Source: Oligoflexia bacterium
GTDB lineage: Bacteria > Bdellovibrionota_G > JANQFH01
DNA length: 64,000 bases
Reading direction: 5' to 3'
Assembly (NCBI GenBank): GCA_028277945.1
Contig: JANQFH010000008.1
Location: 195,442-259,441, forward strand
Shown here in pieces: positions 12,330-31,196 of this stretch (position 1 is its first letter; every line of letters starts with the position of its first letter). The position numbers and the translations under genes are program-made. The notes under the pieces are model-generated. The model did no database searches and was not told the origin of the DNA. It was given only the letters and a program-made list of their open reading frames with translations.

Positions 12330-12345
12330 TGGCACACAATTTGCT
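12330..12345 (+). promoter_or_regulatory. sigma-54 (-24/-12) type promoter upstream of short ORF 12393
   Basis: TGGCACacaatTTGCT. GG at 12331-12332 and GC at 12343-12344 are separated by 10 nt, matching TGGCAC-N5-TTGCW. It lies about 48 nt upstream of ATG 12393. Confidence 0.6.
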
Positions 12346-12392
12346 TTTTTTTAAGCCAGCCACGTCACCTTCAATTTGTTATGGGAGGAACT

Positions 12393-12515
12393 ATGAAGGA
12401 CGCAAAAAAGACAAAACGTCAACAGTCTAAGTCGTCAAAAAAAATCTTTTCCCCTATTAAGGACAAGCTGTTAGATACAGCTATGTCGACTATCACATAT
12501 GATGTAACTGGCTAA
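12393..12515 (+). CDS. candidate precursor/signal peptide, 40 aa (cassette D)
   Basis: MKDAKKTKRQQSKSSKKIFSPIKDKLLDTAMSTITYDVTG. RBS GGGAGG at 12383-12388, 4 nt before the ATG. A sigma-54-type promoter lies upstream. The HExxH gene starts 93 nt downstream on the same strand. Confidence 0.5.
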   Translation: MKDAKKTKRQQSKSSKKIFSPIKDKLLDTAMSTITYDVTG

Positions 12516-12608
12516 GTAGGCAACGAAAATAAGACAACGAAGCTAAGTATGGGAGTGGATGGTCTCTGCTCCCGTACCTTCAAGCCAGGCATATGAGAGA
12601 TCGATTTA

Positions 12609-13601
12609 ATGTGTTTAGAATATCATTCCGCCCCAGGAAAATTATCACCTTTTGTGCTTCGAAAAAATTTTCAAGGATATTTGGTTAAAAGCGCTATTTC
12701 CTACATTAATGAAGTTCAGTCGTCTTTAAAATTGGACCTCAACCACATAATATTAAAGTTATCCAGCCTAGATCAAAACCAGAAATTTTCCCCCTCTATC
12801 TATACAGGGTATCACATACTACAGTCAGCTTACGATAGTCAGAATAAAACCCTTGTGTTGGATGCCCTTCATTTCTTGGTTCAGTATTGCAATGATAAAG
12901 GTGGTAACAATAACATTGATTATTCAACTATACTTACAGAACCATATGAGAATCATTGTATAGACACTTTTCGAAAATCGAACCCTAAAGATGACTTCGG
13001 CGTGCCAGCTTTTGACGTTGTAGAAATGTTTCCAATACTGAATGTTAAAAAATATAAAATTCCTCCGTCTAGCCTTAAAAAGGCTGAAGAAATATTATCG
13101 CTGATTGATATGGATTTATGGAAAGAGTATCAAGCTTACGTTTCTATCTTAAAGATCTTCCAAGGAAAGAGTCTTCAAGGTGGAACAAGTCTCAACTGTT
13201 TTGGTACGGTATACCTGAGAATGCCTGAGGATTCCGAACATCCGGTACTCTACTTCCTGGAACATATTGTGCATGAAACCTCCCATTTGCATCTCTATGC
13301 ATTAGCCGGAGACAGAGACCTTGTTAGAAACGATTCAGCCTCTGTTTATGACTCGCCAATACGACACGACAAACGGCCCATTATTGGGGTATTTCACGCT
13401 ACGTTTGTTTTGGCTCGCTTAGTCCGTATATTTCAGCGCTACCTAAATCATTTTAGCAATGACTATCCAGAAGGAACTACCTTCTACAACAGAATAAGCA
13501 GAGACTTCAAAACCGGATACTCTATATTGAAAGAAAATTGTCTTTTTACAACGCTTGGGCGACAAATTTTTGATTCGTTAGATGATTGTACGAAAATTTG
13601 A
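12609..13601 (+). CDS. HExxH-motif protein (RiPP-associated HEXXH-domain type; possible peptide hydroxylase or peptidase) (cassette D)
   Basis: HIVHETSHLHLY is followed by KRPIIGVFHATFVLAR. The same two blocks occur in paralog 26946-27779 (HELGHHYL .. KRPLFGIYHAAFAEA). Confidence 0.6.
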   Translation: MCLEYHSAPGKLSPFVLRKNFQGYLVKSAISYINEVQSSLKLDLNHIILKLSSLDQNQKFSPSIYTGYHILQSAYDSQNKTLVLDALHFLVQYCNDKGGNNNIDYSTILTEPYENHCIDTFRKSNPKDDFGVPAFDVVEMFPILNVKKYKIPPSSLKKAEEILSLIDMDLWKEYQAYVSILKIFQGKSLQGGTSLNCFGTVYLRMPEDSEHPVLYFLEHIVHETSHLHLYALAGDRDLVRNDSASVYDSPIRHDKRPIIGVFHATFVLARLVRIFQRYLNHFSNDYPEGTTFYNRISRDFKTGYSILKENCLFTTLGRQIFDSLDDCTKI

Positions 13602-14607
13602 AAGGAACGACCCTCTTGGAAATACCGCGTTTGGCAAACTACCTATCAAAAAACTGGTACGTGCTGCAGTCTTCCCTGATCGCTTTTTTGTAGGCAAAGC
13701 AGGTATCAAGCTTGTCAATTGGCAAGGAAATAATCAGTACCTTTGTGGCTTCTCATGCAGCAGACAACCGGCTATTGCCGAAAATGTAGCTGTTTTCGAA
13801 CTCTGTGAACGCTTGACAGCAAAGTATGAATTTCAATCTTTTCTGGGCACGAATATGAATACTTTCAGAGCGTTTACCTGGCCCGATGGGAATCCAGCTA
13901 GAGTGACAAAATCTCAATTATTCCTTGGTCCAAATCCATTTTCCCAATTTGGACAAGAGGCAACTGGCCTAGGTTTTGGCCCTGATTATCATCAAGCATT
14001 AAATCACGCTATTCTTGAATTGTTGGAGAGGCACATCTGCGCAGGTCTTTGGTATGAAGCAAAATATAGGCTATGCAAGGCAATCGACAGAGTATCTTTA
14101 GACTCCTTTGACATTTTCTACTATACCCTCCACAGACCGAAGATACCATTTGTTCTAGCCATTATATACTCGAATGAACTTGAGGTGCTTTCAGTCGGCC
14201 ATGCAATAAGATCTACGTTTGAGGAGGCGAAGGAAAAATCCTACTCCGAAGCAGTGATGCTGTTAGATTGTGTTCTCCACAAGGATAACGGTATCTGTAC
14301 CAATTTAAGAACTAAAAATCGTTTGCTTTCTCAAAGAGGTCCCTTAGCAAAAGAACGATTCCAACAATTTAACGATCTGACAGTAAACGTGGCAGCAGCA
14401 AAAAATATCCTAAGCCGATATTTTTCAATATCTGAGATTACTGCGGCGGTGCTTGGCACTAATGACGATATCGAAATTATTCAACTTTTCCGGGATAGAA
14501 ACTTCTGGTCTCTACGAGCACTTTCGAAGAAGGTGGCTACCTTGGCAGAACGTCGACAATCGAATCGATATTCAGAAAAACAAAAGATTCTGGACCCTTA
14601 TTGCTAA
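13582..14607 (+). CDS. minimal YcaO-domain protein (cassette D)
   Basis: ExxER motifs VAVFELCERL and ATGLGFGPDYHQALNHAILELLERH. Overlaps the HExxH gene by 20 nt. Paralog of 5737-6675. Confidence 0.6.
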   Translation: MIVRKFERNDPLGNTAFGKLPIKKLVRAAVFPDRFFVGKAGIKLVNWQGNNQYLCGFSCSRQPAIAENVAVFELCERLTAKYEFQSFLGTNMNTFRAFTWPDGNPARVTKSQLFLGPNPFSQFGQEATGLGFGPDYHQALNHAILELLERHICAGLWYEAKYRLCKAIDRVSLDSFDIFYYTLHRPKIPFVLAIIYSNELEVLSVGHAIRSTFEEAKEKSYSEAVMLLDCVLHKDNGICTNLRTKNRLLSQRGPLAKERFQQFNDLTVNVAAAKNILSRYFSISEITAAVLGTNDDIEIIQLFRDRNFWSLRALSKKVATLAERRQSNRYSEKQKILDPYC

Positions 14608-15902: not shown

Positions 15903-16034
15903 AAGGCAAGAATTAGGCCAATAGGAATGTCCGGTATTCCAATGGGTTGTAGATAGGTAACGCTTAGGAACAGTATGTCTGATATAGGACGCTCTGTTCA
16001 CCCTGAAGACAGTTTGTTTGTATTGCGAACAATT
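15903..16034. repeat. about 130-nt conserved intergenic element, copy 1 (copy 2 at 28016..28146)
   Basis: Ungapped alignment by eye gives roughly 80% identity with 28016-28146. Best-conserved blocks are TTAGGCCAAT, GTCTGATATA and TGAAGACAGTTTGTTTGTATT.CGAACAAT. ORFs over the two copies lie on different strands, so the element is not coding. Confidence 0.7.
15905..15920 (-). promoter_or_regulatory. sigma-54-like -24/-12 motif inside repeat copy 1, facing MFS gene 14620..15888
   Basis: Minus strand TGGCCTaattcTTGCC. GG at 15919-15918 and GC at 15907-15906 are 10 nt apart. It is very close to ATG 15888, so the transcript would be nearly leaderless unless the start is M10. Confidence 0.35.
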
Positions 16035-17648: not shown

Positions 17649-18392
17649 TCAGTCTTTTCGCGGTGAAAAAATTACGCCCCCAAGCGTTTCAAAAGGCCTT
17701 CCTATATCTACATCTACCTTCAATACATCGCGGGTCTTGATTCTTGCCCAAAGCGTAGTCGGATCCACACGCCTTTCCTCTTCCATCCAAAACTCGTACT
17801 CGCGAACGAAGAATGCTGGAGAGGTAATATCCGCATCAAAAGCGTTCGGATTAAGATAGTAAATTCTAGGTACCCTATGTTGATGGACCCAATCTATGTC
17901 AGGTTTCTCACTACGAGGCCACTTGTGTGTTTCATAGTTGACCTCATCCACACGTGTTCCGTCGTAGCGGCGACTGTGTTTGAATGTTGCCTTGAGCTTC
18001 CGATTCTCTAGTGCTGATTTTATAATTTTGACTTTCCCAACTCCTGCATAGTGAAAAAATAGAATTACAAGTGCCGTTCGGCCTGAATCGATGTCCTGTA
18101 GAAGTTTCTGAGGAAGAACGGAATCTCTAATTTTATCCGTACCTTCCCTACTTAGGAAGTCAAAAAACCAAATTAGGAAGTCTGATCGAACGAAAAAGAA
18201 AAGTCGATCACCAACGGGATCATGAAATACAAGCGGTTCTTTTATAATCTCCTCCGCCTCGTTCTCGGAAAGCTTCACTCGATGAAAATATTTTGATTCC
18301 TTAATCACTTTGTCCGATGGAAAGTAAGAATCAGCATACAACACTGGCGTCACCACTATAAGAACACTCAAACACAACGTAAAGCGATACAA
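17649..18392 (-). CDS. secreted protein, unknown function (toxin module 1)
   Basis: ORF track. Signal peptide FTLCLSVLIVVTPVLYA. I recognised no motif. Confidence 0.6.
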   Translation of the reverse strand: MYRFTLCLSVLIVVTPVLYADSYFPSDKVIKESKYFHRVKLSENEAEEIIKEPLVFHDPVGDRLFFFVRSDFLIWFFDFLSREGTDKIRDSVLPQKLLQDIDSGRTALVILFFHYAGVGKVKIIKSALENRKLKATFKHSRRYDGTRVDEVNYETHKWPRSEKPDIDWVHQHRVPRIYYLNPNAFDADITSPAFFVREYEFWMEEERRVDPTTLWARIKTRDVLKVDVDIGRPFETLGGVIFSPRKD

Positions 18393-18395
18393 CTT

Positions 18396-20923: not shown

Positions 20924-22077
20924 TTTGCCAGGCTCAGAATCAACTGTAATAGAAATGTGCCGTCCCCCTCCAAGGCTTTGGCGATCTCCAACAAGAGTTC
21001 AAGCTCTTTTGCCTTTTCAGTATCTCCTTGCGCCTTCAAAGCGCTGATTCTTTTCTCAGCCTCTGCAACTGGATTGAATCCCTTGACAATACCGGCAATT
21101 CTCTCGATATCCTCTTGACTATGAGCAACAAGTACTTCCAGGTCTCCTTTCAGCTCAGCATCGCTCAACTGTGGTAACACCTCCTCCCGGATCATGTGCG
21201 TTGCTGTAGACCACGTGAAAATGGCTTCTAATGCGGCAAAGAAATCTCGATTGACCAAAACCTCTTTTTGAACCTCAAGCTTCAACGAGGAGAAGAGATC
21301 GGAAATGTCGAAAAGAAAATCAATCCGTTGAAAATCAGCAAAGTATTGTTCCTTGAGCTCCTTATAAATCGCCGCTGACAGTTCAGCGGGTGCAGCGGCA
21401 AGATAGGAGGCAAGCTGATTGTCACTGCGATCGAGTTTTCGCAGCAGAACATCAACCGCCTGTACGAGCCTATCCCCAGTCTCCAAAGCTTCTTTAAAAC
21501 CAATAATGACCTTGCGGTCCTCTTCTCGAATCCGCCGTTCCACTTCCCGAAATCCTTCTAAGTAGAGAGGATCTAATCGGTTACCAGGCGGAGGTATCCG
21601 TTCATCGATGTCTTCTCGGGTTAGCTCTGGAATAACCGCTGATAGACCGGAAGTCGCCGACAGGGCGACCTGTCGAGAGCCTGCAAGCAGGTTTCTCGCT
21701 GCATCAATGTGCGAGCGGACTTGAAAGGCGAGCGACACAGCCTGACGTATCTCTTCTCTAGAGGATGCTGTTTTAACGGCGTTGACTTTGGCAAAGGGAG
21801 CCTCCAACCCTTCTTTGGTACGGCGAAATTCGTTAAGGGCAGCCGTTAGTCGACGCGTTGACCTCGAGGCCCTTGCATAAAGACCCCGATAGTGCTTATG
21901 CGCTGCGGTGCGTCCCTCACTCTTAACGGTAGCGCTCCTGGTCTGCTCGTATTTAAGCTGGAGACGCCGCAGCTCACCTTCCAGTTCCTCTACCGACTGC
22001 GCAAAGGCAGGTGAAAGAACAAAAAGCGAGATCAGCAACGATTTTAAGACCGACATGGGTAAGTATTTAAAGCACAT
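20920..22077 (-). CDS. secreted coiled-coil accessory protein 'X' of toxin module 1 (paralog of 54768..55964)
   Basis: Signal peptide ends ..SPAFAQSVEELEGE. The paralog has ..SLSQAQSVEEMARE. It is helical and charged throughout. Overlaps the toxin start by 4 nt. The likely start is MSVLKSLL (22056). Confidence 0.7.
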   Translation of the reverse strand: MCFKYLPMSVLKSLLISLFVLSPAFAQSVEELEGELRRLQLKYEQTRSATVKSEGRTAAHKHYRGLYARASRSTRRLTAALNEFRRTKEGLEAPFAKVNAVKTASSREEIRQAVSLAFQVRSHIDAARNLLAGSRQVALSATSGLSAVIPELTREDIDERIPPPGNRLDPLYLEGFREVERRIREEDRKVIIGFKEALETGDRLVQAVDVLLRKLDRSDNQLASYLAAAPAELSAAIYKELKEQYFADFQRIDFLFDISDLFSSLKLEVQKEVLVNRDFFAALEAIFTWSTATHMIREEVLPQLSDAELKGDLEVLVAHSQEDIERIAGIVKGFNPVAEAEKRISALKAQGDTEKAKELELLLEIAKALEGDGTFLLQLILSLAK

Positions 22078-22313: not shown

Positions 22314-24110
22314 CTAACTCTGAGGCCGCAGGCCAATTGGAACGAGGCTAGCGAGACTTTTAGGAATACATTTCACACCAAGTCGAGCACAATTCATGAG
22401 GACAACCTCCTCTTCAAAATGGCTTGTCACAAGTATAGCCTGATCTTGAAGGTTGAGCTCTTCAATGAGATCGAGCCCGGTTTCCTTAAAGTTGAGAAGT
22501 TCATAGTCACACAGAAATAAAGCATTGTGTGTATCATTCTTCTCAACCCATGTTCTTATGGCGTCGGGTGTAGACAGATTGTCAAGTTTGATCCTATTTC
22601 CTCCTCCGTTGCGTAATGCATGAAATCGCTCTCGCCAAATCTGATGAATCGTAGGATCGTCGTCCAAGGTTACAATGCGGGAGTCTGGCGCAACTTCAAG
22701 TCTGGGTACAAACCAAGACGGAGGACTTTCTTTGGGTAAAAGCAGAGATATCTGAGTACCTTGTCCTTCCGTACTCTCAATTTTAAGCTCACCTCCCCAG
22801 CTTTCAGCGGCCACTTTTGCATGATAGACTCCAAGACCTAGACCACTATCCGTTCCCCCCTTTCCATAGGTCACTCCCTTTTGGCCCAGTTTTCCGAGAA
22901 TGTCCGGTGGTATTCCTGTCCCGTCGTCTTTTACATAGAGACACAATGTTGAATTATTATGTTGGAACAGGCCAATTTCGATGACACCCTCATCGGTCAT
23001 TGCTTCAACAGAGTTATTTACAAGATTTGAAATTACACGCTTAAGCTCAACAGCACTGACTTTGGCAAACAGTCCGTAGGATTTTTCATCCAATTTGGCC
23101 TCAATTCGGATTCCTGTTTTAGTTCGGAATTGACCCCGTTTTTCGCTGACGATACTTTCTATAATACTTGATATCAACCAAGTCCTTCTCATGGCTTGAT
23201 TGGGCCTCTCGTCATGTTGAGCCTGATGTATATTTCTGCCCAGCAAGTTGTTGGCGATATCTTTAATACGTTGGGACGCATTACGTATAAGAACGCGTTT
23301 CTCTTCCGGAATGTCTACAAGAGTGCCAGCCAAAAGATCCAATGCTGCTACAGGAGCTCGTATATCATGCGCGATTTGTTGAGCCACTTGGTAAACAGCT
23401 TCCGCCTTTTTTGTTTCGATCCTATATTGATTTGACTGAAGAGTTTGTTGCGCAAGTTTCCTAATGGAAGAGGTGAGAATAACAACTTCGGACAGATCAC
23501 CCTTGATATTTGGCTGATCAAGGAGTGAAAGATCTTCTAAGTTGCCACTTTCAGCTGTTTGACTAAGCGTGTGTAGCGGTGCTGAGATCCGATGTGCCAC
23601 TCTTTTTAGCATAAGGAAAGCTATAGCAGCGATAGTCATTAAGACAAATAGAGATACTCCCATAATCCGGTAGTATAGACCACGAATGATTCCGGTATTA
23701 AACCTCATACTAACCATAGCCGCTGGTTGTGTCTTTTCGTCGTCAAAATATACAGTGCGTTCAACGACAAATTTACTCGTCCTCGACACTTCTGCAGTTT
23801 CTGGTAAACTCTCGTAAATAACTTCTCCTCTTATGTTCGAAATAATAATGTTATCTATGGCCTCTTTTTTTATCAAGAGATTGCACTTTTCACGGATGCT
23901 GAGGTGAGAGCCGGTAAGAATTTCGTAGCGAATATTCTCGGAAAAGAGTTCTAAAATCATCTCATGTTTTGACGCAACTAAGTTATCGAAACTCTTGTTA
24001 ACCGCAAATAGAATTAGGATTCCCACAAGAATTAAACCCAATGATACTGTTATTGAAAAAGTTCTGAGTAAACTGGTGAATACAGTATGTTGACGTTTAG
24101 GCATTTCCAC
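22314..24110 (-). CDS. hybrid sensor histidine kinase (cassette B)
   Basis: Two TM segments. H-box IAHDIRAPVAAL. N-box NLVNNSVEAM. G-boxes DDGTGIP and GTDSGLGLG. C-terminal receiver-like domain (IVTLDDD .. LFLCDYEL .. ILVTSH .. IPK). Confidence 0.85.
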   Translation of the reverse strand: MEMPKRQHTVFTSLLRTFSITVSLGLILVGILILFAVNKSFDNLVASKHEMILELFSENIRYEILTGSHLSIREKCNLLIKKEAIDNIIISNIRGEVIYESLPETAEVSRTSKFVVERTVYFDDEKTQPAAMVSMRFNTGIIRGLYYRIMGVSLFVLMTIAAIAFLMLKRVAHRISAPLHTLSQTAESGNLEDLSLLDQPNIKGDLSEVVILTSSIRKLAQQTLQSNQYRIETKKAEAVYQVAQQIAHDIRAPVAALDLLAGTLVDIPEEKRVLIRNASQRIKDIANNLLGRNIHQAQHDERPNQAMRRTWLISSIIESIVSEKRGQFRTKTGIRIEAKLDEKSYGLFAKVSAVELKRVISNLVNNSVEAMTDEGVIEIGLFQHNNSTLCLYVKDDGTGIPPDILGKLGQKGVTYGKGGTDSGLGLGVYHAKVAAESWGGELKIESTEGQGTQISLLLPKESPPSWFVPRLEVAPDSRIVTLDDDPTIHQIWRERFHALRNGGGNRIKLDNLSTPDAIRTWVEKNDTHNALFLCDYELLNFKETGLDLIEELNLQDQAILVTSHFEEEVVLMNCARLGVKCIPKSLASLVPIGLRPQS

Positions 24111-25611
24111 CTAATCCTTTTCGGTGCAATTTCCATAATTCATGAAAAAATGTCTCTCCAAATTTTGGCATGTCTATTTGCTTTTTTAAGAGAATAGGAT
24201 AGTCAAAGGCCAGAATAGGGACAAAAAAATGTCTGCTTTCAAAATCTACCAGCTCTCTCTCGTACAGTTTTAGGCGTCGCAAGCGTTTTTTAGTAAACCG
24301 GATTGCCGAAATCCTATCCAAGAATTCTTTAACGGGAAATAATCTTTCAACGCCAAATAGCTTGCTCTGTAGAGGCCACAGGTAGCCATCTGGATCAGTT
24401 AGGCCTGCACCAAAAATAAAAGAGATCAGATCGAAATCCCCTGTCTTGTAGTAATTCAATAGCAGGGCCAAATCGACGATTCGAATATCCGGAACTAACC
24501 CTAGTCGTTCTAAAAGGGAGGAAACGCTATTGATGTGTTGCTGAGACATAAAACCTTTGTATACAACGACTCGAAATTTGTGGCCCTCAAGTTTCGGATA
24601 TTTTGTGACAAAGTTATCTTCAGTGATTTGGCTTTTTCTTGGTCCATAATAAGACATCGGAAGAGTACCCTCGGGAAGGAAGGTATGAAGAGATTTCTGG
24701 AAAGGCACTAGATTTTTCTTGATGGTGGATAGTGATGAAATAAGATAGCTTAAGTCGCGTCGTAGATTAGAGGACTTTAGATGGGCTCTATGTGTGTTAT
24801 ATAGGAAATGTAACACAAACACATTGTTGGGAAGAACCACATCAAAGCTGCTGCTATCAAGTTTGATTTTCGCAAGTTCATATGGGGCCACACCCAAAAA
24901 AACATCGAATTTGTTGGCCTCTATCAAGGTTCTTAAATCACTATAATCGTATCCTTCAACCACAAGTTTATAAATATTTTCGGAGGAAGTTCTTGGTTCA
25001 AAGCTCCAAGTTTTTCCTTTATTTGTTAGACTTGCAGTCATTAAACCGGAGCCGGTACAACAAAACGATTCTTTTTCGACAATGCCAAAAAGAGGATTGT
25101 TAAGAAGCTTTAGAAAAGGAGGATAGGGCCCCTTGAGATAAAATCTAATGTGTTGTTCGTCTATTGCCTCGACAGCATTGGTGCCTGCTTTGGTCTTGGG
25201 TTGCAGGGCAAGCTCCAAAATCGATCGTGAAGAAAAGTTTGATTCTAAAATTCTGAGAAATGAGTGCTCAACATCTTTGGCAGTGATTTTTCTTCCATTA
25301 TGAAAGCGTAGGTTAGGTTTTAGCTTAAAAGTGTATTCTCTGCCACTATCGTTTATGCTCCAACTTTCGGCTAGTTCAGACACAACAATACCTCTCTCAT
25401 TCAGGCGGACTAGACGCGAAAATACACAGGCGCTCATCATAAGGTGCGATACCGATACTATTTTCATTGGATCTAGAGTTTGTGGGAGAATGCTCACACC
25501 AATCTTTAGTTCATTGTAATTCGTCAGGTCTTTTGCCAGCAAATCAGTACTCAAAAAGCATATTAAGAATAGCACGGAGAAAATATTGAATTGTTTAGCA
25601 CTCTTTTTCAT
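24097..25611 (-). CDS. periplasmic solute-binding protein, family 5 (cassette B)
   Basis: Start taken at MKKSAKQFNIFSVLFLICFLSTDLLA (signal peptide), 6 nt after the MFS stop. Signature region LAESWSINDSGREYTFKLKPNLRFHNGRKITAKDVEHSF. The 3' end overlaps the HK start by 14 nt. Confidence 0.85.
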   Translation of the reverse strand: MKKSAKQFNIFSVLFLICFLSTDLLAKDLTNYNELKIGVSILPQTLDPMKIVSVSHLMMSACVFSRLVRLNERGIVVSELAESWSINDSGREYTFKLKPNLRFHNGRKITAKDVEHSFLRILESNFSSRSILELALQPKTKAGTNAVEAIDEQHIRFYLKGPYPPFLKLLNNPLFGIVEKESFCCTGSGLMTASLTNKGKTWSFEPRTSSENIYKLVVEGYDYSDLRTLIEANKFDVFLGVAPYELAKIKLDSSSFDVVLPNNVFVLHFLYNTHRAHLKSSNLRRDLSYLISSLSTIKKNLVPFQKSLHTFLPEGTLPMSYYGPRKSQITEDNFVTKYPKLEGHKFRVVVYKGFMSQQHINSVSSLLERLGLVPDIRIVDLALLLNYYKTGDFDLISFIFGAGLTDPDGYLWPLQSKLFGVERLFPVKEFLDRISAIRFTKKRLRRLKLYERELVDFESRHFFVPILAFDYPILLKKQIDMPKFGETFFHELWKLHRKGLGGNA

Positions 25612-25616
25612 TTGTG

Positions 25617-26933
25617 TTATGATCCTGACCGCACAGAGCTCTTTCGTTTTTGTTCGGATAATAAATAGACAGAAAAAATAGAAACAACACAGATGATACA
25701 CACTGTAATCATGGCCTCTTCAACAGAAGGAGCTCCATCTCTACATTTGCCTAGGTACCAGCTGTAGAAGCCGATACCTGCAAAAGCAGGCATATTCTGT
25801 AAACTTAGAGCTGTTGCCAATTCCTCATTGTCTACTACGGAGCATAGAAGGTTAGTTGCTAATGCGCCTGTGGCTCCGACCACAACATCAGCCATAACGG
25901 CGTATACTAAGATCATGAGGATTAGCATCGTAGGGTTTAGTGAGCTGAATGTACATAAAATATACAGACTGATTGTAGCAAGAAGAGTAAAGTGAATTAA
26001 GAGGTAATTATTTGTACTTAATCTTTTGCTCATCACTAGCCTTGGTAGTACATGTCCTCTTACAATCCATCCTATTCCACCATAAGCAAAGGTAAAGAGT
26101 CCCATGATAAACCACGAGAATAGGCCGTGGTCCGCATTTCCAAACTGTCTACCCAGAGTGATCGCAAAGTAGCCCGCGTTTACTGCAGCTAACATAAAGG
26201 CTGATAGCCGTAAATAAATCGCCTTTTTGGCGACCATACTTTGCCGTAACCTGCTGATTAGATTCGATGTGCTTGGTCTCCCCCCACTTATTGAAGTATC
26301 ACCATAAATACGAAAGTCCCTGAAAAGACGATAGAATCCTGCATACCATAGCAAAATACCGATGATCAGTGTGTGATGCACTCCAATGGTGTGATAGGTA
26401 ACAAAAAGTAAGACAAAAGCCAGCAGGATAACCAAGGCTGTGAGATATTTCCCGGCATGTTGGCTGAGAGTAAAACTTTGGCTGGCCATTTTCTCTGCTT
26501 CGTTATGTCCTTTTGATAACCTACGGATAGCATCCTGGTAGAAAGCCTCCACAGATCCTGAAATCAATGGCTTTGAAAATCCAACAATGACGCCATGTAT
26601 GATAAAAAGAAGCCGAGAAAAGGTGTTCGGCATGCTCGGGAAAAGGGCCACATAGATGCCACAGGTTCCAAGGAGAATAAGAAAACCGCCCAATAGTGCG
26701 CAAGGAATTCTACCAAAACGATCCGCAACGTATCCCATTGGAACTTCAAAAATCACATTCATCAGAAACTCAATGCCCGTAAGCAGAGCAACTGTATCAA
26801 GCGGTACGTTAGCCAGCACACCAGCAGTAATACGGAAAGTGATCGAAATGAAATGAGTTGATGCGAGGTTGAGAGCTCTAAATATACCTAAACTTTTAAC
26901 ACATGCTTGAGTTTGTGCGAGGGTTTGATCCAT
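25617..26933 (-). CDS. MFS transporter (cassette B)
   Basis: MFS motif A-like GYVADRFGRIPCALLGG. About 12 hydrophobic helices. Confidence 0.8.
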   Translation of the reverse strand: MDQTLAQTQACVKSLGIFRALNLASTHFISITFRITAGVLANVPLDTVALLTGIEFLMNVIFEVPMGYVADRFGRIPCALLGGFLILLGTCGIYVALFPSMPNTFSRLLFIIHGVIVGFSKPLISGSVEAFYQDAIRRLSKGHNEAEKMASQSFTLSQHAGKYLTALVILLAFVLLFVTYHTIGVHHTLIIGILLWYAGFYRLFRDFRIYGDTSISGGRPSTSNLISRLRQSMVAKKAIYLRLSAFMLAAVNAGYFAITLGRQFGNADHGLFSWFIMGLFTFAYGGIGWIVRGHVLPRLVMSKRLSTNNYLLIHFTLLATISLYILCTFSSLNPTMLILMILVYAVMADVVVGATGALATNLLCSVVDNEELATALSLQNMPAFAGIGFYSWYLGKCRDGAPSVEEAMITVCIICVVSIFSVYLLSEQKRKSSVRSGS

Positions 26934-26945
26934 TATGATCTCTAT

Positions 26946-27779
26946 TTACACTTCTATTCTCTCTCTGACACCTAGCATAAACAACTTAATGTCCTTATCG
27001 AATTCCAGAAGACCAGATTTTGTAATAGTAGTAAGATCCTTTATATACTTGTTCTTATAACAATCTAAAATACGACTGGAACTCTGCTTGATTAACTCTT
27101 CTATCGAGTGATTCGAATGTATCCGCAAACCAAGTTCCAGCATGGCCGCCTCAGCAAAGGCTGCATGATAGATACCGAACAGTGGCCTTTTCATGTTTCT
27201 CAAAGCTGATCGGTCTTCTTTTGCCCATGGATAGCGATTCACTGTGGCTTCACTTTTTGTTGCAAAGACAATAGTAAGGTAGTGATGGCCCAACTCGTGA
27301 GCTAGAATTTCTGCCCACTTCACAGGGTCATCACTATTCATTACATATTCAATAAGTCCAAAGACTTGGGGATCAGAGGCTGATTCGTGTTCAACACCTT
27401 GCCTGGGAAAACACATTCTTGGTTTGATAATTTGCTCAAATGCAAATAGTTTCTTCCATACTACTCCGATAATTGTTCTTGCTGCAGAGTATAGTGCTTC
27501 TTTTTCTGGATAGCGTTGCAGTGAAGAATCAAAAATAATGTTACTGCCAACTACGAACTTGCTACGTGCGATATCACGAGTTATTAGATTGCTAACTTGG
27601 TCAGTTGACAGACTAAACTTATCACGATTGAAATAGATCCAAGAGAGAGTTGATAAGCTCAATTCTCTATTAATGTCTATATTGCGGAATGCTGGTATGA
27701 GCTTAAGAGCTTGCATTCCCTGCTGTCTAAATTGACTAACGTATTTTTTTGTCAGATCAATTGAGAATATAGAAGGCAT
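26946..27779 (-). CDS. HExxH-motif protein (cassette B), paralog of 12609..13601
   Basis: ILAHELGHHYL, then KRPLFGIYHAAFAEAAM. Both blocks are shared with the cassette D protein. Confidence 0.6.
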   Translation of the reverse strand: MPSIFSIDLTKKYVSQFRQQGMQALKLIPAFRNIDINRELSLSTLSWIYFNRDKFSLSTDQVSNLITRDIARSKFVVGSNIIFDSSLQRYPEKEALYSAARTIIGVVWKKLFAFEQIIKPRMCFPRQGVEHESASDPQVFGLIEYVMNSDDPVKWAEILAHELGHHYLTIVFATKSEATVNRYPWAKEDRSALRNMKRPLFGIYHAAFAEAAMLELGLRIHSNHSIEELIKQSSSRILDCYKNKYIKDLTTITKSGLLEFDKDIKLFMLGVRERIEV

Positions 27780-27817
27780 TCATCATGCCAATTTTTTATT
27801 ACGTTTTAGTTGCCTCA

Positions 27818-27922
27818 CTACGACCCGGTAGGTATGCTAGCTAACTTAGCACCTAGCACACGGTGTGATTGAAAAGAGAAATTGAAGGAAACTGTCTTTT
27901 TACTTTCGTTGCTTTTTGCCAT
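27818..27922 (-). CDS. candidate precursor/signal peptide, 34 aa (cassette B); not in ORF track
   Basis: Minus-strand ATG at 27922-27920. Translation checked codon by codon: MAKSNESKKTVSFNFSFQSHRVLGAKLASIPTGS*. RBS AGGAG at 27934-27930, 7 nt before the ATG. The stop is 38 nt upstream of the HExxH start. Confidence 0.5.
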   Translation of the reverse strand: MAKSNESKKTVSFNFSFQSHRVLGAKLASIPTGS

Positions 27923-28015
27923 TTTCTAGCTCCTGGTTACAGATGGTTTGTAACTTGTTTGTAATTTTGTCAGTTACACATTATCTGGAATCGATAGCAA
28001 TTAATACCTTTTCAA

Positions 28016-28146
28016 AAGCAAGAGTTAGGCCAATGGGAATATCCAATATTTCAATACGTTGTAAATATATGATACTCGGAGACAGTGTGTCTGATATAAG
28101 ACATTCTGTTCACTATGAAGACAGTTTGTTTGTATTTCGAACAATA
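28016..28146. repeat. about 130-nt conserved intergenic element, copy 2
   Basis: See copy 1 (15903-16034). It lies upstream (minus-strand sense) of the cassette B operon. Confidence 0.7.
28017..28032 (-). promoter_or_regulatory. sigma-54-like -24/-12 motif inside repeat copy 2, facing cassette B operon
   Basis: Minus strand TGGCCTaactcTTGCT. GG at 28031-28030 and GC at 28019-18 are 10 nt apart. The -12 element is about 95 nt upstream of the short-ORF ATG at 27922. Confidence 0.5.
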
Positions 28147-28331: not shown

Positions 28332-28499
28332 ACTCCTAGAGAGTAGGGTACTAGGAGTTAATAGGGAACTAAAGTTACAAAAACCTCGGTATGAGGTTGC
28401 AATGTAACACGATAATGTATTAAAATTAAATTCTTAATTGAAAAAATAATACGTAACTTCTAGAGCTACGAACGTGTGTCATCAAAGGAGGGGGGCAAC

Positions 28500-29189
28500 A
28501 TGTTTCGCAACAAGGGTAGACGGTTTTCAAATAACGGCTTTTCTCTAACCGAGGTGATGATCTCGGTATCGATTGTTGGCATCCTCTCTGCTGTAGCCAT
28601 TCCTACGTATAAGAAACACTTCCGCCGCGCAAAAATCGCTGAGGCGCATCTGGGTTTGGCTGACCTACACAAATCCATGCAAGCGCACTTTCTCCAACAT
28701 CGTTGGTACAACGCCAATATAGATCAACTAACTAGTGACGCTAAGTTCACAGACTCAAAGTCACGGGCAATCTATGGGTTTAATGCAAACCAATATACTG
28801 GAGGTACATTCCCAACATGTAAAACCACCAACGAGGACTGCTTTACTACTCATGGGGAGGGTAATGATTTAAACGTAACTCCTGCGGATATCTTATTTGA
28901 ACGAGCCTGCCCCCAAGTGTCCTTCGGATCACTAGTAAAGTGTTCCTTTCCTATTCCGAGCTATGATCCTCGCAGCGGCGACCCTAAAGCCAGCGATTTT
29001 ACGTGGGGTCGACCAACCCGTTATGAAGCGCATGCAGTCATGGATATAGATAACGACGGCGAGTTGACAGTCTTTGGTGTTAATGAAACAGGTACGATTT
29101 TCCAGCTCTGTAATGATGGTGACAGTGTTGAAGTGGCTGGCAGTTATACTGGGGCACTTGCGGGAGATGTTATCTGTAGTAGACCCTAG
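28500..29189 (+). CDS. type IV pilin / pseudopilin-like protein
   Basis: Start at ATG 28500 behind AAGGAGGGGGG. Prepilin N-terminal motif ..NNGFSLTEVMISVSIVGILSAVAIPTY (G|FxLxE plus a hydrophobic helix). Confidence 0.8.
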   Translation: MFRNKGRRFSNNGFSLTEVMISVSIVGILSAVAIPTYKKHFRRAKIAEAHLGLADLHKSMQAHFLQHRWYNANIDQLTSDAKFTDSKSRAIYGFNANQYTGGTFPTCKTTNEDCFTTHGEGNDLNVTPADILFERACPQVSFGSLVKCSFPIPSYDPRSGDPKASDFTWGRPTRYEAHAVMDIDNDGELTVFGVNETGTIFQLCNDGDSVEVAGSYTGALAGDVICSRP

Positions 29190-29207: not shown

Positions 29208-31196
29208 ATGCCCCGAAGATTTAACTATAACTTTTCTGGCTGGCTGAAGAAGTATTTCATTCCTCTTTTTATCTTCCTATTAAGCCTTACCACGGTCTTC
29301 AGCTTTTACCTTCTCAGTTCTCCCTCTGATCAAAAAACTGTCTTCAGCATTGTAGACCGCTCCCTCTACCACTCCTTTTTATTGCCAACAACTACCCAAG
29401 AGCTCTCTAGCAACGCCCCCATAACTATCGTCGCCATAGACGACGAAGATCTAGAGCGTTATGGCTCTTGGCCTTGGTCACGAGCGCTCTTAGCCAACGG
29501 TATCGAGGCGATTAATCGTTACGATCCAGCCCTGGTTGGGTTCTCTATCCTCATTGATCCTTTGCGCACGGTGGCCCCTTCAGAGAACGCAGCGCTATTC
29601 AAAGAACTCGCTGCCACTAAACACTTGGTTACTGCCTTTAACTTCAACTTCTCTCAACGCTTTCAAATAGGCACTGAAGAAGTCAGCTGGATCGCCAAGG
29701 CCGCTTTAGATGATCGACCAACTACAGAGGTCTCTGTCTTTCCCTATCAGCGTCCATTTAGCTTTCATGCTGCTGCACCTGAAGTCGTCAACGCCTCTGC
29801 CAACATGGGCTTTCTCAGCTACGCCAACTCTAAGGGACTTCTAGTCTACCCAACACTCTCTTACTTTGGCAGTCACTTCTACAAATCCTATCCGTTGGCA
29901 ATCGCGCAGAGTTTTAAACAGCAACAAACCCCAACAAAACTCTCCATCTTACGTAATAGAGAAGGTGTAGAGGGTTTGGAGTTTGGTAACCACACCCTGC
30001 CTACCCTTAACAACGGTACCATTCTATTGAGACCCTACAAGAAGCTCTCCCAAAGGAACGACCGTGCCTTTCCACAACTACGCTTTCGTGATCTTTTAGA
30101 AGGCAAAATACAACCGCACAAGTTGCGCGATAAGATCGTCCTGGTTGATCTAACTGCTTCAGGTTACTCACAGTCCTTCAACGTTCTCGATGGTGGTTTG
30201 GCCTCGAGACCAGTGATCCATGCCACTGCTGTGGCCAACCTGTTGCAAAACGACTTTATCCGTCGCGATGGGCGGGCCACGCTGCTAGAGACCCTATTGA
30301 TTCTCCTGGTAACCCTCTTGGTTTGGTGGTGCTCACGTAACCTCAAGGCAGTTACGGCAGTATTTGCCATCTGCCTTACGATTCCAGCTACCTTGCTCCT
30401 CATTGCATTAGCTGCGATCCACTTTGCCAACCTCTGGTTGCTGATCTCCTATCCATTAGCAGCACTGCTGATCTCCTTTCCCCTGCAGTTTGGCTACAAA
30501 CACTTTGTTGAAGATCGCCAGCGTCGCATAGTCGAGCGAGCACTCACAGGTTACACCTCAAAAACCGTGATGGACCGCTTGATTGAGAGAGGAGAGAGCT
30601 TTTTAACCTTAGGGGGTGAACGCCGTGATCTCACTATCTTGTTGTTCGATATCAAGGGTTTTACCCAACTATCCCACCGTCTGACCCCTGAAGAGACCTT
30701 TAAGCTGTTAAACCACATCTTTAAGCTTACGGATGAGATCATTATCGATCGCTTCAATGGAATGATTGATAAAAAGATGGGTGATGCTTGCATAGCTCTC
30801 TTTGGTCTTGATGGTGGCAAGGAGCATGCTCTGCATGCTGTGCAGGCAGCGCTGGCTATACAGGAGACTTTGTTTGAGCGCTTTGCTGAGCTCTCTCGCT
30901 TGGCTCACAAACAGGAGCTGGGTCCAGGTTGTATCCAGATCCGCGTTGGCATCACCACCGGTACCGTACTCCTTGGCAATGTCGGCTCTGAGCGACACAA
31001 GAACTTTACGGCCGTGGGTGAGATCGTCAACCAATGCCAACGCCTTGAGGCAGCTTGCAGTCTAGGTGAAGTGTTGATCAGTGAGGAGACCTACAGACGT
31101 TTAGGTGACCAAGTCAGGGTTGAGAAGAAGCAAGCACCCGGCAAACGAGAGGAAGAGTCTTATCTCGCTTACCGGGTACTGGGTTTAGCACATTAA
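29208..31196 (+). CDS. CHASE2 sensor domain-containing class III adenylate/guanylate cyclase
   Basis: N-terminal TM segment, then ITIVAIDDEDLERYGSWPWSRALLA (CHASE2-like). This is followed by three or more TM helices and a cyclase core RDLTILLFDIKGFTQLS .. KKMGDACIALFG .. RVGITTGTVLLGNVGS. Confidence 0.85.
   Translation: MPRRFNYNFSGWLKKYFIPLFIFLLSLTTVFSFYLLSSPSDQKTVFSIVDRSLYHSFLLPTTTQELSSNAPITIVAIDDEDLERYGSWPWSRALLANGIEAINRYDPALVGFSILIDPLRTVAPSENAALFKELAATKHLVTAFNFNFSQRFQIGTEEVSWIAKAALDDRPTTEVSVFPYQRPFSFHAAAPEVVNASANMGFLSYANSKGLLVYPTLSYFGSHFYKSYPLAIAQSFKQQQTPTKLSILRNREGVEGLEFGNHTLPTLNNGTILLRPYKKLSQRNDRAFPQLRFRDLLEGKIQPHKLRDKIVLVDLTASGYSQSFNVLDGGLASRPVIHATAVANLLQNDFIRRDGRATLLETLLILLVTLLVWWCSRNLKAVTAVFAICLTIPATLLLIALAAIHFANLWLLISYPLAALLISFPLQFGYKHFVEDRQRRIVERALTGYTSKTVMDRLIERGESFLTLGGERRDLTILLFDIKGFTQLSHRLTPEETFKLLNHIFKLTDEIIIDRFNGMIDKKMGDACIALFGLDGGKEHALHAVQAALAIQETLFERFAELSRLAHKQELGPGCIQIRVGITTGTVLLGNVGSERHKNFTAVGEIVNQCQRLEAACSLGEVLISEETYRRLGDQVRVEKKQAPGKREEESYLAYRVLGLAH

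What the first reader, a model, noticed from the sequence alone, without database searches (positions are those of the whole stretch)
22314..28146. Cassette B is the complete version: sigma-54 element, 34-aa ORF, HExxH, MFS, SBP, hybrid HK, all on one strand
Seen: the following lie on the minus strand with short gaps or overlaps, in this order. A conserved about 130-nt element with a GG-N10-GC motif (28017-28032). A short ORF MAKSNESKKTVSFNFSFQSHRVLGAKLASIPTGS (27922-27818, AGGAG RBS). An HExxH protein (27779-26946). An MFS gene (26933-25617). An SBP (25611-24097). A hybrid HK (24110-22314).

Inference: this is a single operon that places peptide production, modification, export and reception under one promoter. 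That is an autoinduction-type arrangement. It serves as the template for interpreting the partial cassettes.
Basis: partly seen in the sequence, partly recalled or inferred. Interest (0 to 1): 0.85.

Follow-up and report, generated by a model that had tools for sequence, protein, structure and literature searches.

The report
Modified-peptide operon with its own sensor
One sigma-54-driven operon, probably from a Bdellovibrio-like bacterium, encodes a small peptide, an enzyme that probably hydroxylates it, an exporter and a periplasmic binding-protein/kinase sensor; this looks like a peptide self-signalling circuit of a type I could not find described for Gram-negative bacteria.

Summary
On the minus strand lie a 131-nt promoter element with a near-consensus sigma-54 site, a 34-aa ORF with an AGGAG ribosome-binding site, an aKG-HExxH-type enzyme, an MFS transporter, a family-5 solute-binding protein (SBP) with no ABC partner, and a hybrid histidine kinase (HK). 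The genes are separated by 38, 12 and 5 nt, and the last pair overlaps by 8 nt.

Comparative data support the modified-peptide (RiPP) reading:
- The HExxH family is rare. In Bacteriovoracia MAGs and metagenome contigs it sits beside the same MFS, an SBP, a hybrid HK and a sigma-54 activator.
- A homologous short ORF lies directly 5' of the HExxH gene in those loci.
- Eight relatives of the kinase all follow an SBP gene (Pfam-confirmed in seven). Upstream are short ORFs and varying peptide-modifying enzymes: LanM-like, radical SAM, methyltransferase.

The circuit resembles LuxP/LuxQ/LuxO, with a RiPP as the presumed signal.

Not shown:
- that the SBP binds the operon's own peptide;
- which activator serves this promoter (none lies in the window);
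- what chemistry the enzyme performs.

Verdict: real, apparently undescribed, a new variant of known kinds.

The parts
28015..28145 (-). 131-nt conserved promoter module: a probable upstream activator region followed by the sigma-54 -24/-12 site
   Evidence: 80% identical to 15903-16033. Conservation stops just past the -12 TTGC, so it covers an untranscribed region. No Rfam match.
28017..28032 (-). Sigma-54-type -24/-12 promoter TGGCCTAACTCTTGCT; inferred TSS near 28006
   Evidence: Exact match to TGGC-N7-TTGCW; 7 in the window against 1.58 expected. The TSS is inferred from the usual spacing.
27818..27922 (-). 34-aa precursor peptide gene (MAKSNESKKTVSFNFSFQSHRVLGAKLASIPTGS)
   Evidence: AGGAG ribosome-binding site. 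Short ORFs occupy the same position before the HExxH gene in L001, L002, L004, L005, L007 and L008. Similarity to the L001, L002 and L004 peptides is significant against shuffles (p 0.003, 0.0005, <0.0005). L001 against L002: 8 synonymous and 3 conservative non-synonymous changes.
26946..27779 (-). aKG-HExxH-type peptide-modifying enzyme (probable beta-hydroxylase), 277 aa
   Evidence: TIGR04267, 43.6 bits against a cut-off of 40. AF2 pLDDT 95.6. Best PDB match 8s5f ChlBHExxH, E 1.3e-6, TM 0.70. H161, E162, H165, R198 and H205 are invariant in 29 relatives.
25617..26933 (-). MFS transporter, presumed exporter of the peptide
   Evidence: Weak MFS_1 hit. 36-37% identical to the MFS that follows the HExxH gene in L001, L002, L005 and L008; 27% in L009.
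24097..25611 (-). Orphan periplasmic solute-binding protein, family 5 (peptide/nickel/opine type), presumed signal receptor
   Evidence: SBP_bac_5 E 1.9e-31. Signal peptide. No ABC permease or ATPase among the scanned window ORFs.
22314..24104 (-). Hybrid sensor histidine kinase: 2 TM helices, a periplasmic domain of about 110 aa, HisKA, HATPase_c and a divergent receiver domain
   Evidence: Pfam. Paralogue alignment. The receiver model matches TorR, XynC, RcsB and other receiver domains. 596-aa database form.
15903..16033 (-). Second copy of the promoter module, directly upstream of a second MFS gene (14620-15888)
   Evidence: This implies the second MFS is co-regulated with cassette B by the same unknown activator.
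12330..14607 (+). Related cassette: sigma-54 site TGGCACACAATTTGCT, a short ORF (...MKDAKKTKRQQSKSSKKIFSPIKDKLLDTAMSTITYDVTG), a second HExxH protein (12609-13601) and a YcaO protein (13582-14607)

Best explanation
Cassette B is a RiPP-type peptide-signalling operon.

Proposed mechanism:
1. A sigma-54 promoter, with an upstream activator region, drives one transcript.
2. The transcript encodes a 34-aa precursor and an Fe/alpha-ketoglutarate HExxH enzyme that modifies it, most likely by side-chain hydroxylation. It also encodes an MFS pump that exports the product, an orphan periplasmic peptide-type binding protein, and a membrane hybrid histidine kinase.
3. The exported modified peptide is captured by the binding protein, which docks on the kinase's small periplasmic domain.
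4. The phosphorelay runs from the kinase His to its own receiver domain, through a phosphotransfer step, to an NtrC-type sigma-54 activator encoded elsewhere in this genome.
5. The activator acts back on the 131-nt promoter module. This module also controls a second MFS gene at 14620-15888.

Shown: the gene identities, the compact operon structure, the promoter motif and its duplicate, the homology and position of the precursor, the enzyme's fold and the receiver fold. Also shown is the recurrent linkage of SBP, HK and sigma-54 activator with short ORFs and RiPP enzymes in other genomes.

Inferred: co-transcription, the chemistry, the direction of transport, binding of the operon's own peptide, and the sign of the feedback.
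For: Operon and promoter:
- Gaps of 38, 12 and 5 nt and one 8-nt overlap, all on one strand.
- A sigma-54 site inside a duplicated 131-nt module.

Enzyme:
- NCBIfam TIGR04267 above its cut-off.
- High-confidence model that matches the ChlBHExxH oxygenase.

Precursor:
- A short ORF with AGGAGG lies directly 5' of the HExxH gene in 6 of 7 related loci that contain upstream sequence.
- Similarity to three of those peptides is significant against shuffles.
- The codon substitution pattern indicates purifying selection.

Synteny of the HExxH cassette:
- The order REC-sigma-54 activator, 70-aa His protein, SBP, peptide, HExxH, MFS, hybrid HK is found in L001, L002/L003, L005 and L008.

Generality of the SBP-HK pairing:
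- Seven full-length HK relatives and one partial relative all follow an SBP gene. Pfam confirms SBP_bac_5 in seven of the eight.
- Upstream of them are short ORFs plus DUF4135/LanC, radical SAM with or without Peptidase_M19, or a methyltransferase.
- Sigma-54 sites lie upstream in L014 and L016, and an activator is adjacent in L016.

Control:
- A relative with a 7TMR-DISM sensor in place of this N-terminus has no SBP.

Divergence:
- The SBP and the kinase's periplasmic part are the most divergent components, as expected for ligand-specific surfaces.

Precedent:
- SBP-stimulated kinases exist, including the SBP_bac_5 protein CBP with the hybrid kinase ChiS, and LuxP-LuxQ (PMC8050422).
Against: - No sigma-54 activator and no HPt-like gene lie in the 64-kb window, so the loop cannot be closed from sequence.
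- The SBP-HK pair of cassette B is closer to pairs attached to LanM-like cassettes than to the pair in the orthologous HExxH cassettes. This shows module shuffling and weakens a strict 'cognate receptor' argument.
- No leader protease or RRE domain is present, and no leader/core boundary can be identified.
- An HMM built from all five non-window peptides ranks the window peptide only 19th of 2534 six-frame segments (E 17).
- SBP_bac_5 proteins also bind nickel, opines, chitin oligosaccharides and murein peptides, so the ligand could be something else.
- The MFS hit is below Pfam's gathering score, and the direction of transport is unknown.
Confidence: 0.55

Rival explanations
1. It is a RiPP biosynthetic operon, perhaps for a bacteriocin or a predation factor. 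Its SBP/HK senses an external cue such as prey-derived or murein-derived peptides, metals or oligosaccharides, not the operon's own product. Regulation would then be environmental induction and not autoinduction.
For: - SBP_bac_5 ligands are diverse: MppA binds murein tripeptide, CBP binds chitin oligosaccharides, NikA binds nickel.
- The NCBIfam hits of the SBP are to NikA/Opp-type proteins, and only over the N-terminal part.
- SBP-HK modules have been exchanged between cassettes with different enzymes.
Against: - The SBP-HK pair was found only next to short ORFs plus peptide-modifying enzymes in 8 of 8 sampled loci and in three cassettes of this window.
- SBPs and periplasmic kinase domains diverge far faster than the enzyme and the MFS. 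A shared generic cue would predict conserved sensors.
Confidence: 0.25
2. The SBP and MFS serve uptake or recycling of a peptide (import rather than export), and the kinase merely reports substrate availability. On this reading the cassette is a catabolic or uptake operon in which the HExxH protein acts as a peptidase-like enzyme.
For: - HExxH is the classical zincin protease motif.
- The MFS direction cannot be read from sequence.
- MFS and SBP genes are adjacent (5-nt gap).
Against: - The enzyme matches the aKG-HExxH oxygenase family by HMM and by fold, not a zincin protease.
- I know of no SBP-dependent MFS importer (my own knowledge).
- A conserved co-encoded peptide gene has no role in an uptake model.
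- In L001-type loci the SBP is not adjacent to the MFS.
Confidence: 0.1
3. The short ORF is a chance ORF, and the 131-nt element is a structured RNA or other repeat. In that case the four large genes would form an ordinary two-component operon with accessory genes.
For: - Short ORFs are abundant: 107 ORFs of at least 30 aa lie in 11 kb.
- The peptide family HMM does not single out this ORF.
Against: - Strong ribosome-binding site, positional conservation in related loci, pairwise similarity beyond shuffles, and a synonymous-biased substitution pattern.
- No Rfam match.
- Conservation of the element ends just past the -12 box, upstream of the inferred transcription start.
Confidence: 0.05

Closest known systems
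Vibrio LuxP-LuxQ-LuxU-LuxO quorum-sensing phosphorelay
   Same: - A periplasmic binding protein without a transporter partner signals to a membrane hybrid kinase (HisKA, HATPase, receiver).
- The output goes through an NtrC-type sigma-54 activator to sigma-54 promoters.
Sources: for LuxP-LuxQ; LuxU and LuxO from my own knowledge. The activator is found here only in orthologous loci.
   Different: - The presumed signal is a ribosomal modified peptide encoded in the same operon, not AI-2.
- The SBP is family 5, not Peripla_BP_4.
- The kinase's periplasmic domain is only about 110 aa.
- No LuxU-type HPt was identified, only a conserved 70-aa His-containing protein in L001-type loci.
- The sigma-54 promoter sits on the signal gene itself.
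Lantibiotic autoinduction (nisin NisK/NisR, subtilin SpaK/SpaR) in Gram-positive bacteria
   Same: A RiPP precursor, its modification enzymes, an exporter and a sensor kinase are encoded together. The mature peptide induces its own operon (my own knowledge).
   Different: - Here the host is Gram-negative (diderm).
- The sensor is an SBP plus a hybrid kinase and not a direct membrane sensor.
- Export uses an MFS pump, not a LanT ABC transporter.
- Transcription depends on a sigma-54 activator and not an OmpR-type regulator.
- The enzyme is an aKG-HExxH oxygenase.
- Self-induction is not demonstrated.
aKG-HExxH RiPP enzymes (ChlBH/ChlH domain, BpmH, PflC/PosC)
   Same: - Same family by HMM and fold.
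- Encoded next to a short precursor and transporters, with no protease in the cluster, as in the pfl cluster (PMC12636437).
   Different: - Stand-alone 277-aa protein, only 15-16% identical to the solved ChlBHExxH domain.
- It belongs to a small clade: 52 representatives among 1.84 billion proteins.
- No radical SAM, MNIO or other partner enzyme is present.
- It is linked to an SBP-HK sensor, which the literature I searched does not report for this family.
- Substrate residue and reaction are unknown.
ChiS-CBP of Vibrio cholerae
   Same: An SBP_bac_5 protein regulates a hybrid sensor kinase from the periplasm (PMC8050422).
   Different: The CBP ligand is chitin oligosaccharide, and CBP also serves an ABC transporter. 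Here there is no transporter partner, and a peptide gene is co-encoded.
Enterococcal pheromone-responsive conjugation (PrgZ/PrgX)
   Same: An OppA-family binding protein captures a small ribosomal peptide signal (my own knowledge). In the orthologous loci L002, L005 and L018 the signalling module lies next to conjugative T4SS genes.
   Different: - In Enterococcus the pheromone is imported and acts on a cytoplasmic repressor. Here a transmembrane kinase relay is predicted.
- No T4SS genes were found in this window.

Membership tests
aKG-HExxH-type peptide beta-hydroxylase (NCBIfam TIGR04267 / IPR026337) | Family HMM score above the curated cut-off | tested here: met
   43.6 bits against a cut-off of 40, E 3.1e-11, residues 127-225. 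This is only marginally above the cut-off.
aKG-HExxH-type peptide beta-hydroxylase (NCBIfam TIGR04267 / IPR026337) | HExxH motif plus conserved downstream His/Arg (candidate metal and aKG ligands) | tested here: met
   H161, E162, H165, R198, P199 and H205 are invariant in 29 relatives. Their roles as ligands are inferred.
aKG-HExxH-type peptide beta-hydroxylase (NCBIfam TIGR04267 / IPR026337) | Fold of the solved ChlBHExxH oxygenase domain | tested here: met
   AF2 pLDDT 95.6. Foldseek top hits are 8s5f chains, E 1.3e-6, probability 1.0, TM 0.70. The next is SjiH; nothing else has E below 0.1.
aKG-HExxH-type peptide beta-hydroxylase (NCBIfam TIGR04267 / IPR026337) | Fe(II)/aKG-dependent hydroxylation of a peptide substrate | not testable with these tools
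   Needs in vitro reconstitution or heterologous co-expression with mass spectrometry.
RiPP biosynthetic gene cluster | Short precursor gene adjacent to the tailoring enzyme and conserved with it | tested here: met
   Present in 6 of 7 related loci with upstream sequence. Pairwise p of 0.003 or less against L001, L002 and L004. 8 synonymous against 3 non-synonymous changes between L001 and L002.
RiPP biosynthetic gene cluster | Leader/core organisation with a recognition element and a leader protease | tested here: inconclusive
   No protease or RRE domain in the cassette. The conserved motif [ST]FN[LF]...[VIL][LI]G[EA]x[RL]AS spans most of the peptide, and no cleavage site is evident.
SBP-dependent hybrid-kinase / sigma-54 phosphorelay (LuxPQ-LuxU-LuxO type) | Secreted SBP with no ABC transporter partner, co-encoded with the kinase | tested here: met
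   Signal peptide. No ABC genes among the scanned ORFs. SBP and HK are in the same operon in all sampled loci.
SBP-dependent hybrid-kinase / sigma-54 phosphorelay (LuxPQ-LuxU-LuxO type) | Hybrid kinase: HisKA, HATPase_c and a receiver with the DD/D/T/K positions | tested here: met
   - HisKA and HATPase_c are found by Pfam.
- Pfam misses the receiver, and profile matches to PDB response regulators are weak (E 0.12).
- D22, D23, D74, T101 and K123 are conserved.
- AF2 model with pLDDT 95.1; all top PDB hits are receiver domains.
SBP-dependent hybrid-kinase / sigma-54 phosphorelay (LuxPQ-LuxU-LuxO type) | HPt phosphotransfer protein | tested here: inconclusive
   None recognised in the window. 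A conserved helical protein of about 70 aa with a conserved N-terminal His lies between the activator and the SBP in L001, L002, L005 and L008. It has no homologue in the window.
SBP-dependent hybrid-kinase / sigma-54 phosphorelay (LuxPQ-LuxU-LuxO type) | REC-AAA+ sigma-54 activator as the response regulator | tested here: not met
   Absent from the 64-kb window (Pfam scans; tblastn). Present next to orthologous or related cassettes in L001, L002, L005, L008, L016 and L018.
SBP-dependent hybrid-kinase / sigma-54 phosphorelay (LuxPQ-LuxU-LuxO type) | Sigma-54 (-24 GG / -12 GC) target promoter | tested here: met
   TGGCCTAACTCTTGCT at 28032-28017 inside a duplicated module. Function is not tested.
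Autoinducing (quorum-sensing) peptide system | The secreted product activates its own promoter through the co-encoded receptor | not testable with these tools
   Requires reporter, binding and deletion experiments.

The most novel reading that the evidence does not exclude
Cassette B is one member of a widespread, modular family of RiPP-based peptide quorum-sensing systems in diderm bacteria (Bdellovibrionota and Elusimicrobiota). An interchangeable modified-peptide module (HExxH hydroxylase, YcaO, LanM-like dehydratase, radical SAM or methyltransferase) is read by a fast-evolving orphan SBP plus a LuxQ-like hybrid kinase, and relayed to a sigma-54 activator. In some elements the output is conjugative transfer genes. 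This would be a peptide 'pherotype' system in Gram-negative bacteria, comparable to agr or com in Gram-positives.
Probability: 0.4. Interest if true: 0.9.

Novelty: new variant of a known kind. Interest (0 to 1): 0.78.

Why it matters
- Gap in current knowledge: from my own knowledge, ribosomal peptide signalling is the rule in Gram-positive bacteria, but few examples are known in Gram-negatives, and no quorum-sensing system is established for Bdellovibrio-like predators.
- What this offers: a concrete, testable circuit with a 34-aa peptide that can be synthesised, a single modifying enzyme, a soluble receptor and a defined promoter.
- Generality: the comparative data indicate the same receptor/kinase chassis has been combined with at least five RiPP chemistries across two phyla.
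- Possible payoffs: new signal chemistries, orthogonal peptide-responsive switches for Gram-negative synthetic biology, and, if the link to conjugation genes holds, a new mode of controlling horizontal transfer.
- Enzymology: it gives a new, minimal substrate/enzyme pair for the recently recognised aKG-HExxH oxygenase family.

Tried and rejected
- Source contig: exact-sequence look-ups for the HExxH protein and for HipA found no contig. The source genome is not among the species representatives scanned. The organism is therefore only inferred, as Bacteriovoracia-like, from its nearest homologues.
- Word-indexed protein search: it found only the HExxH protein itself. The full HMMER scan was needed to find relatives.
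- Locus search: the 29-sequence alignment was too diverse, so an 8-sequence alignment was used.
- Receiver domain by sequence: Pfam found nothing at E up to 0.01. A 3-sequence profile against the PDB gave nothing useful. A 24-sequence profile gave only weak response-regulator hits. Structure prediction settled it.
- Peptide family HMM against all six-frame segments of the window: the B peptide ranks 19th of 2534 and is not significant. Pairwise shuffle tests against the closer peptides are significant.
- Palindrome TGTCT-N6-AGACA in the element as a candidate activator site: it is not conserved in the second copy and not enriched. I do not propose it as the binding site. The direct repeats AGACAGTKTGT are seen in copy 1 only.
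- Known RNA family in the element: none.
- Intrinsic terminator after the kinase, or an attenuator after the peptide gene: no convincing candidate.
- Literature: eight searches on HExxH RiPPs, Bdellovibrionota or Elusimicrobia RiPPs, and SBP plus kinase plus RiPP plus sigma-54 found no description of this arrangement. The library is limited to open-access papers and bioRxiv.

Full report
**1. What is in the sequence**

- The ORF table and the sequence show a 34-aa ORF at 27922-27818. AGGAG ends 8 nt before its ATG.
- The 277-aa ORF 27779-26946 contains HELGH.
- The 438-aa ORF 26933-25617 is a membrane protein with a weak MFS_1 hit.
- The next ORF is an SBP_bac_5 protein (E 1.9e-31). Its ATG at 25611 yields a typical signal peptide.
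- The last ORF is a kinase with HisKA and HATPase_c.
- Spacing: 38 nt from peptide to HExxH, 12 nt from HExxH to MFS, 5 nt from MFS to SBP, and an 8-nt overlap between SBP and HK. The overlap uses the ATG at 24104, which the 596-aa database form of the kinase implies.
- This spacing is typical of a single translationally coupled operon. Co-transcription itself is inferred.

**2. The upstream element**

- The repeat finder reports a 131-nt repeat, 28015-28145 against 15903-16033, at 80% identity.
- In the alignment, conservation starts abruptly at ATTGTTCG and ends just past the TTGC of a TGGCCTAA(C/T)TCTTGC motif.
- That motif matches the sigma-54 consensus TGGC-N7-TTGCW exactly at 28032-28017. 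The window holds 7 such matches against 1.58 expected.
- Two others precede related genes. One is at 12330-12345, before a second peptide/HExxH/YcaO cassette. The other is at 57554-57569.
- Conservation ends at the -12 box, upstream of the inferred transcription start, and there is no Rfam match. I therefore read the element as a promoter plus an activator-binding region, not as an RNA.
- I could not define the activator site. The TGTCT-N6-AGACA palindrome is not conserved in copy 2.
- The second copy sits directly before a second MFS gene, 14620-15888. Both units should therefore answer to the same activator.

**3. The enzyme**

- Pfam finds nothing, but NCBIfam TIGR04267 (aKG-HExxH-type peptide beta-hydroxylase) scores 43.6 bits against a cut-off of 40.
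- The protein is a singleton in the word-indexed search of 5.8 billion proteins.
- A full HMMER scan of 1.84 billion representatives finds only 52 relatives at E up to 0.001. About 37 of them have the same length of about 280 aa.
- Twenty-nine relatives share invariant H161, E162, H165, R198, P199 and H205.
- An AF2 model built on that alignment has pLDDT 95.6. Its only strong PDB matches are the ChlBHExxH aKG-dependent oxygenase domain (8s5f; E 1.3e-6, TM 0.70) and SjiH.
- Characterised members hydroxylate Asp/His (ChlH) or Gln (PflC/PosC). PflC/PosC also cleave off a C-terminal ARMD tetrapeptide oxidatively (PMC12636437).
- Membership is supported. The reaction and the target residue here are unknown.

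**4. The precursor**

Related loci were fetched from genome and metagenome collections.

- Six of the seven with upstream sequence carry a short ORF with an AGGAGG-type ribosome-binding site immediately 5' of the HExxH gene. L006 is the exception.
  - L001: MKNRKRSFNLAILRNKLIGEARASY
  - L002: MKTNKKLGIKRRSFNLALLKNKLIGEVRASYP
  - L004: MSTVTFNLEIHEDQILGEARASM
  - L005, L007, L008: MTD..QIECEVLVSLEIFDDEIISESRASM
- Between L001 and L002 the aligned 20 codons show 9 identical codons, 8 synonymous changes and 3 conservative replacements. That is a coding signature.
- The window peptide aligns as ..TVSFNFSFQSHRVLGAKLAS.. Its similarity exceeds composition-preserving shuffles against L004 (p<0.0005), L002 (p=0.0005) and L001 (p=0.003), but not against L005.
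- An HMM of all five foreign peptides does not single it out (rank 19 of 2534). Sequence evidence is therefore moderate, and positional evidence is strong.
- I found no protease, RRE or recognisable leader cleavage site.

**5. Synteny of the HExxH cassette**

- L001, L002 (identical to L003), L005 and L008 share one gene order. It runs REC-Sigma54_activat activator, a protein of about 70 aa with a conserved His, SBP_bac_5, the short ORF, HExxH, MFS and a hybrid HK.
- L001 and L002 are Bacteriovoracia MAGs. L003, L005 and L008 are metagenome contigs of unknown taxonomy.
- L009 retains HExxH followed by MFS.
- HExxH is 34-40% identical and the MFS 36-37% identical to the window proteins.
- The same five functions are thus linked in independent genomes, together with the sigma-54 activator that the window cassette lacks.
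- Neither an activator nor the 70-aa protein is encoded in the window (Pfam scans; tblastn).

**6. The kinase and its partners**

- The three kinases in the window are paralogues (31-34% identity). They share two TM helices around a periplasmic segment of about 110 aa, an H-box (AHDIR.P), an ATPase domain and a C-terminal domain with conserved LDDD, DYEL, ILVT and PK.
- Pfam and a PDB profile search barely see this domain.
- An AF2 model (pLDDT 95.1) has a (beta-alpha)5 receiver fold. Every top PDB match is a receiver domain: TorR, XynC, RcsB, GacS D1, Sln1.
- 'Hybrid kinase' is therefore correct. Most relatives carry two such domains in tandem; the window's three carry one.
- A search with the kinase gave 422 hits at E up to 1e-30. 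The named ones come mostly from Bdellovibrionota and Elusimicrobiota.
- I looked up the context of seven full-length relatives and one partial relative. All eight lie directly after, or one gene after, an SBP gene. Seven of the SBPs have a Pfam SBP_bac_5 hit; the 473-aa one in L014 does not.
- Small ORFs and varying peptide-modifying enzymes lie upstream:
  - DUF4135 (LanM dehydratase-like) in L010/L011, L017 and the P0056 contig;
  - DUF4135 plus LanC in L014;
  - B12-radical SAM plus Peptidase_M19 in L012;
  - radical SAM in L019;
  - MFS plus methyltransferase in L016, with an adjacent sigma-54 activator.
- Consensus sigma-54 sites precede the L014 and L016 cassettes.
- One control is a relative whose N-terminus is a 7TMR-DISM sensor. 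It has no SBP, but it does have an activator, a small protein and small-molecule enzymes.
- In this window, cassettes A (SBP, YcaO, HK; 8248-3907) and C follow the same logic. Cassette C runs from 40258 to 35658 and comprises a 27-aa ORF, a DUF4135 protein, an SBP and an HK. It is preceded by TAGCACGTTCCTTGCA.

**7. Mechanism proposed**

- The recurrent unit is a peptide plus tailoring enzyme(s), an orphan peptide-type SBP, and a hybrid kinase feeding a sigma-54 activator.
- The closest working analogue is LuxP/LuxQ/LuxU/LuxO. ChiS-CBP is a precedent for an SBP_bac_5 protein controlling a hybrid kinase. Nisin-type RiPP autoinduction is the precedent for a RiPP that induces its own operon (my own knowledge).
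- I propose that the modified 34-mer is exported by the MFS and bound by the SBP. The signal is then relayed to an unlinked activator acting on the 131-nt module. This would regulate both the operon itself and the second MFS gene.
- In favour of cognate sensing, the SBPs and periplasmic kinase segments are by far the most divergent parts (at most 27% identity, often undetectable). The kinase cores are 35-50% identical and the enzyme and MFS 34-40%.
- Against a simple picture, the B sensor pair is closer to sensor pairs of LanM-like cassettes than to the pair in orthologous HExxH cassettes. HK scores are 330-404 bits against 57-120 bits. Sensory and biosynthetic modules have recombined.
- The main rival remains open: the SBP may sense an external peptide or other cue.

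**8. Comparison and novelty**

- The enzyme is a member of a known family.
- The signalling architecture works like LuxPQ-LuxO, but membership fails on the activator (absent from the window) and is inconclusive on HPt.
- In the searchable literature I found no description of SBP-HK-linked RiPP cassettes or of peptide signalling in Bdellovibrionota or Elusimicrobiota.
- I rate it a new variant of known kinds: a RiPP cluster joined to an SBP-dependent sigma-54 phosphorelay. It is of high interest because it is modular, widespread and directly testable.

**9. Limits**

- The organism is inferred only from its nearest homologues.
- Nothing about transcription, translation, chemistry, export, binding or feedback has been measured.
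- Context sampling of kinase relatives was small (nine look-ups) and not random.

Noticed in passing
window 12330-14607 (+): A second HExxH cassette. It has a sigma-54 site TGGCACACAATTTGCT and a short ORF ending ...KKIFSPIKDKLLDTAMSTITYDVTG. These are followed by a 330-aa HExxH paralogue (HETSH, 29% identical to the B enzyme) and a YcaO protein. It converges on the MFS gene that carries the duplicated B-type promoter.
   Followed up: partly
window 40363-35658 (-): Cassette C. A near-consensus sigma-54 site with AG in place of GG (TAGCACGTTCCTTGCA, 40363-40348) precedes a 27-aa ORF, MKKRRREYIDLDKLEKIVVIRGVTVGI (40258-40175). Then come a stand-alone DUF4135 (LanM dehydratase-like) protein, an SBP and a hybrid HK. 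The same DUF4135-SBP-HK trio occurs in Elusimicrobia and Bdellovibrio contigs (L010, L017).
   Followed up: partly
window 8248-3907 (-): Cassette A: SBP_bac_5, YcaO, hybrid HK. I found no convincing precursor ORF or sigma-54 site upstream. The only candidate is a 25-aa TTG-initiated ORF at 8400-8323.
   Followed up: partly
L002 2012-4581 (-); L005 520-4674 (-); L018 1-1991 (-): In the orthologous or related loci, the operon divergent from the sigma-54 activator encodes Sigma70_r4 regulators, a TrbC/VirB2 pilin, TcpE, TraU, a VirB11-like ATPase and TraC. These are conjugative T4SS genes. In L002 and L005/L008 a sigma-54 site faces this operon; L018 was not scanned for one. The peptide/kinase module may control conjugative transfer there. 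No T4SS genes were seen in the window.
   Followed up: partly
L001 6160-6378; L002 6176-6394; L005/L008 about 6235-6445: A conserved helical protein of about 70 aa with a conserved N-terminal His (IHDFQ / LHDFQ / LHGIS) lies between the activator and the SBP. It is a candidate minimal phosphotransfer protein for the hybrid kinase. No Pfam assignment was attempted, and it has no homologue in the window.
   Followed up: partly
window 16033-16146 (-): A 40-aa remnant of an SBP (45% identical to residues 73-112 of the B SBP) abuts the second copy of the promoter element. This suggests a decayed or rearranged cassette.
   Followed up: no
window 41114-44740 (+) and 47260-50011 (+): More partial cassettes.
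- First: an MFS, a 267-aa unknown protein, and an SBP that is 42% identical to the B SBP but lacks its signal peptide.
- Second: duplicated 30-44-nt segments (43254-43346 against 47260-47355), followed by a 122-aa ORF, an MFS and a methyltransferase.
No kinase is attached to either.
   Followed up: partly
window 16150-22077 (-): A tightly packed five-gene operon lies directly downstream of the B kinase. Four of the proteins have no family hit. The 594-aa protein has a C-terminal RES domain and a weak MbnB/TglH (MNIO, RiPP enzyme) hit (E 0.005).
   Followed up: no
window, whole: The region looks like an accessory island.
- The cassettes are 39-43% GC against 48-52% in flanking genes.
- HipA (50651-51907), Fic (9717-10907) and RES toxin-type genes are interspersed.
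- SelB (488-2617), a type IV pilin-like gene (28476-29189) and a CHASE2 adenylate/guanylate cyclase (29208-31196) flank the cassettes.
   Followed up: no
window 57554-57569 (-) and 52634-57538 (-): A consensus sigma-54 site, TGGCATTTTCTTTGCA, precedes a three-gene operon (522, 398 and 710 aa) with no Pfam hits at all.
   Followed up: no
P0054-P0172: The kinase core with its unusual receiver domain forms a large family in Bdellovibrionota and Elusimicrobiota. Most members have two tandem receiver-like domains, and some have a different sensor N-terminus (7TMR-DISM, HAMP). The family appears to be a general chassis for locally encoded signals.
   Followed up: partly
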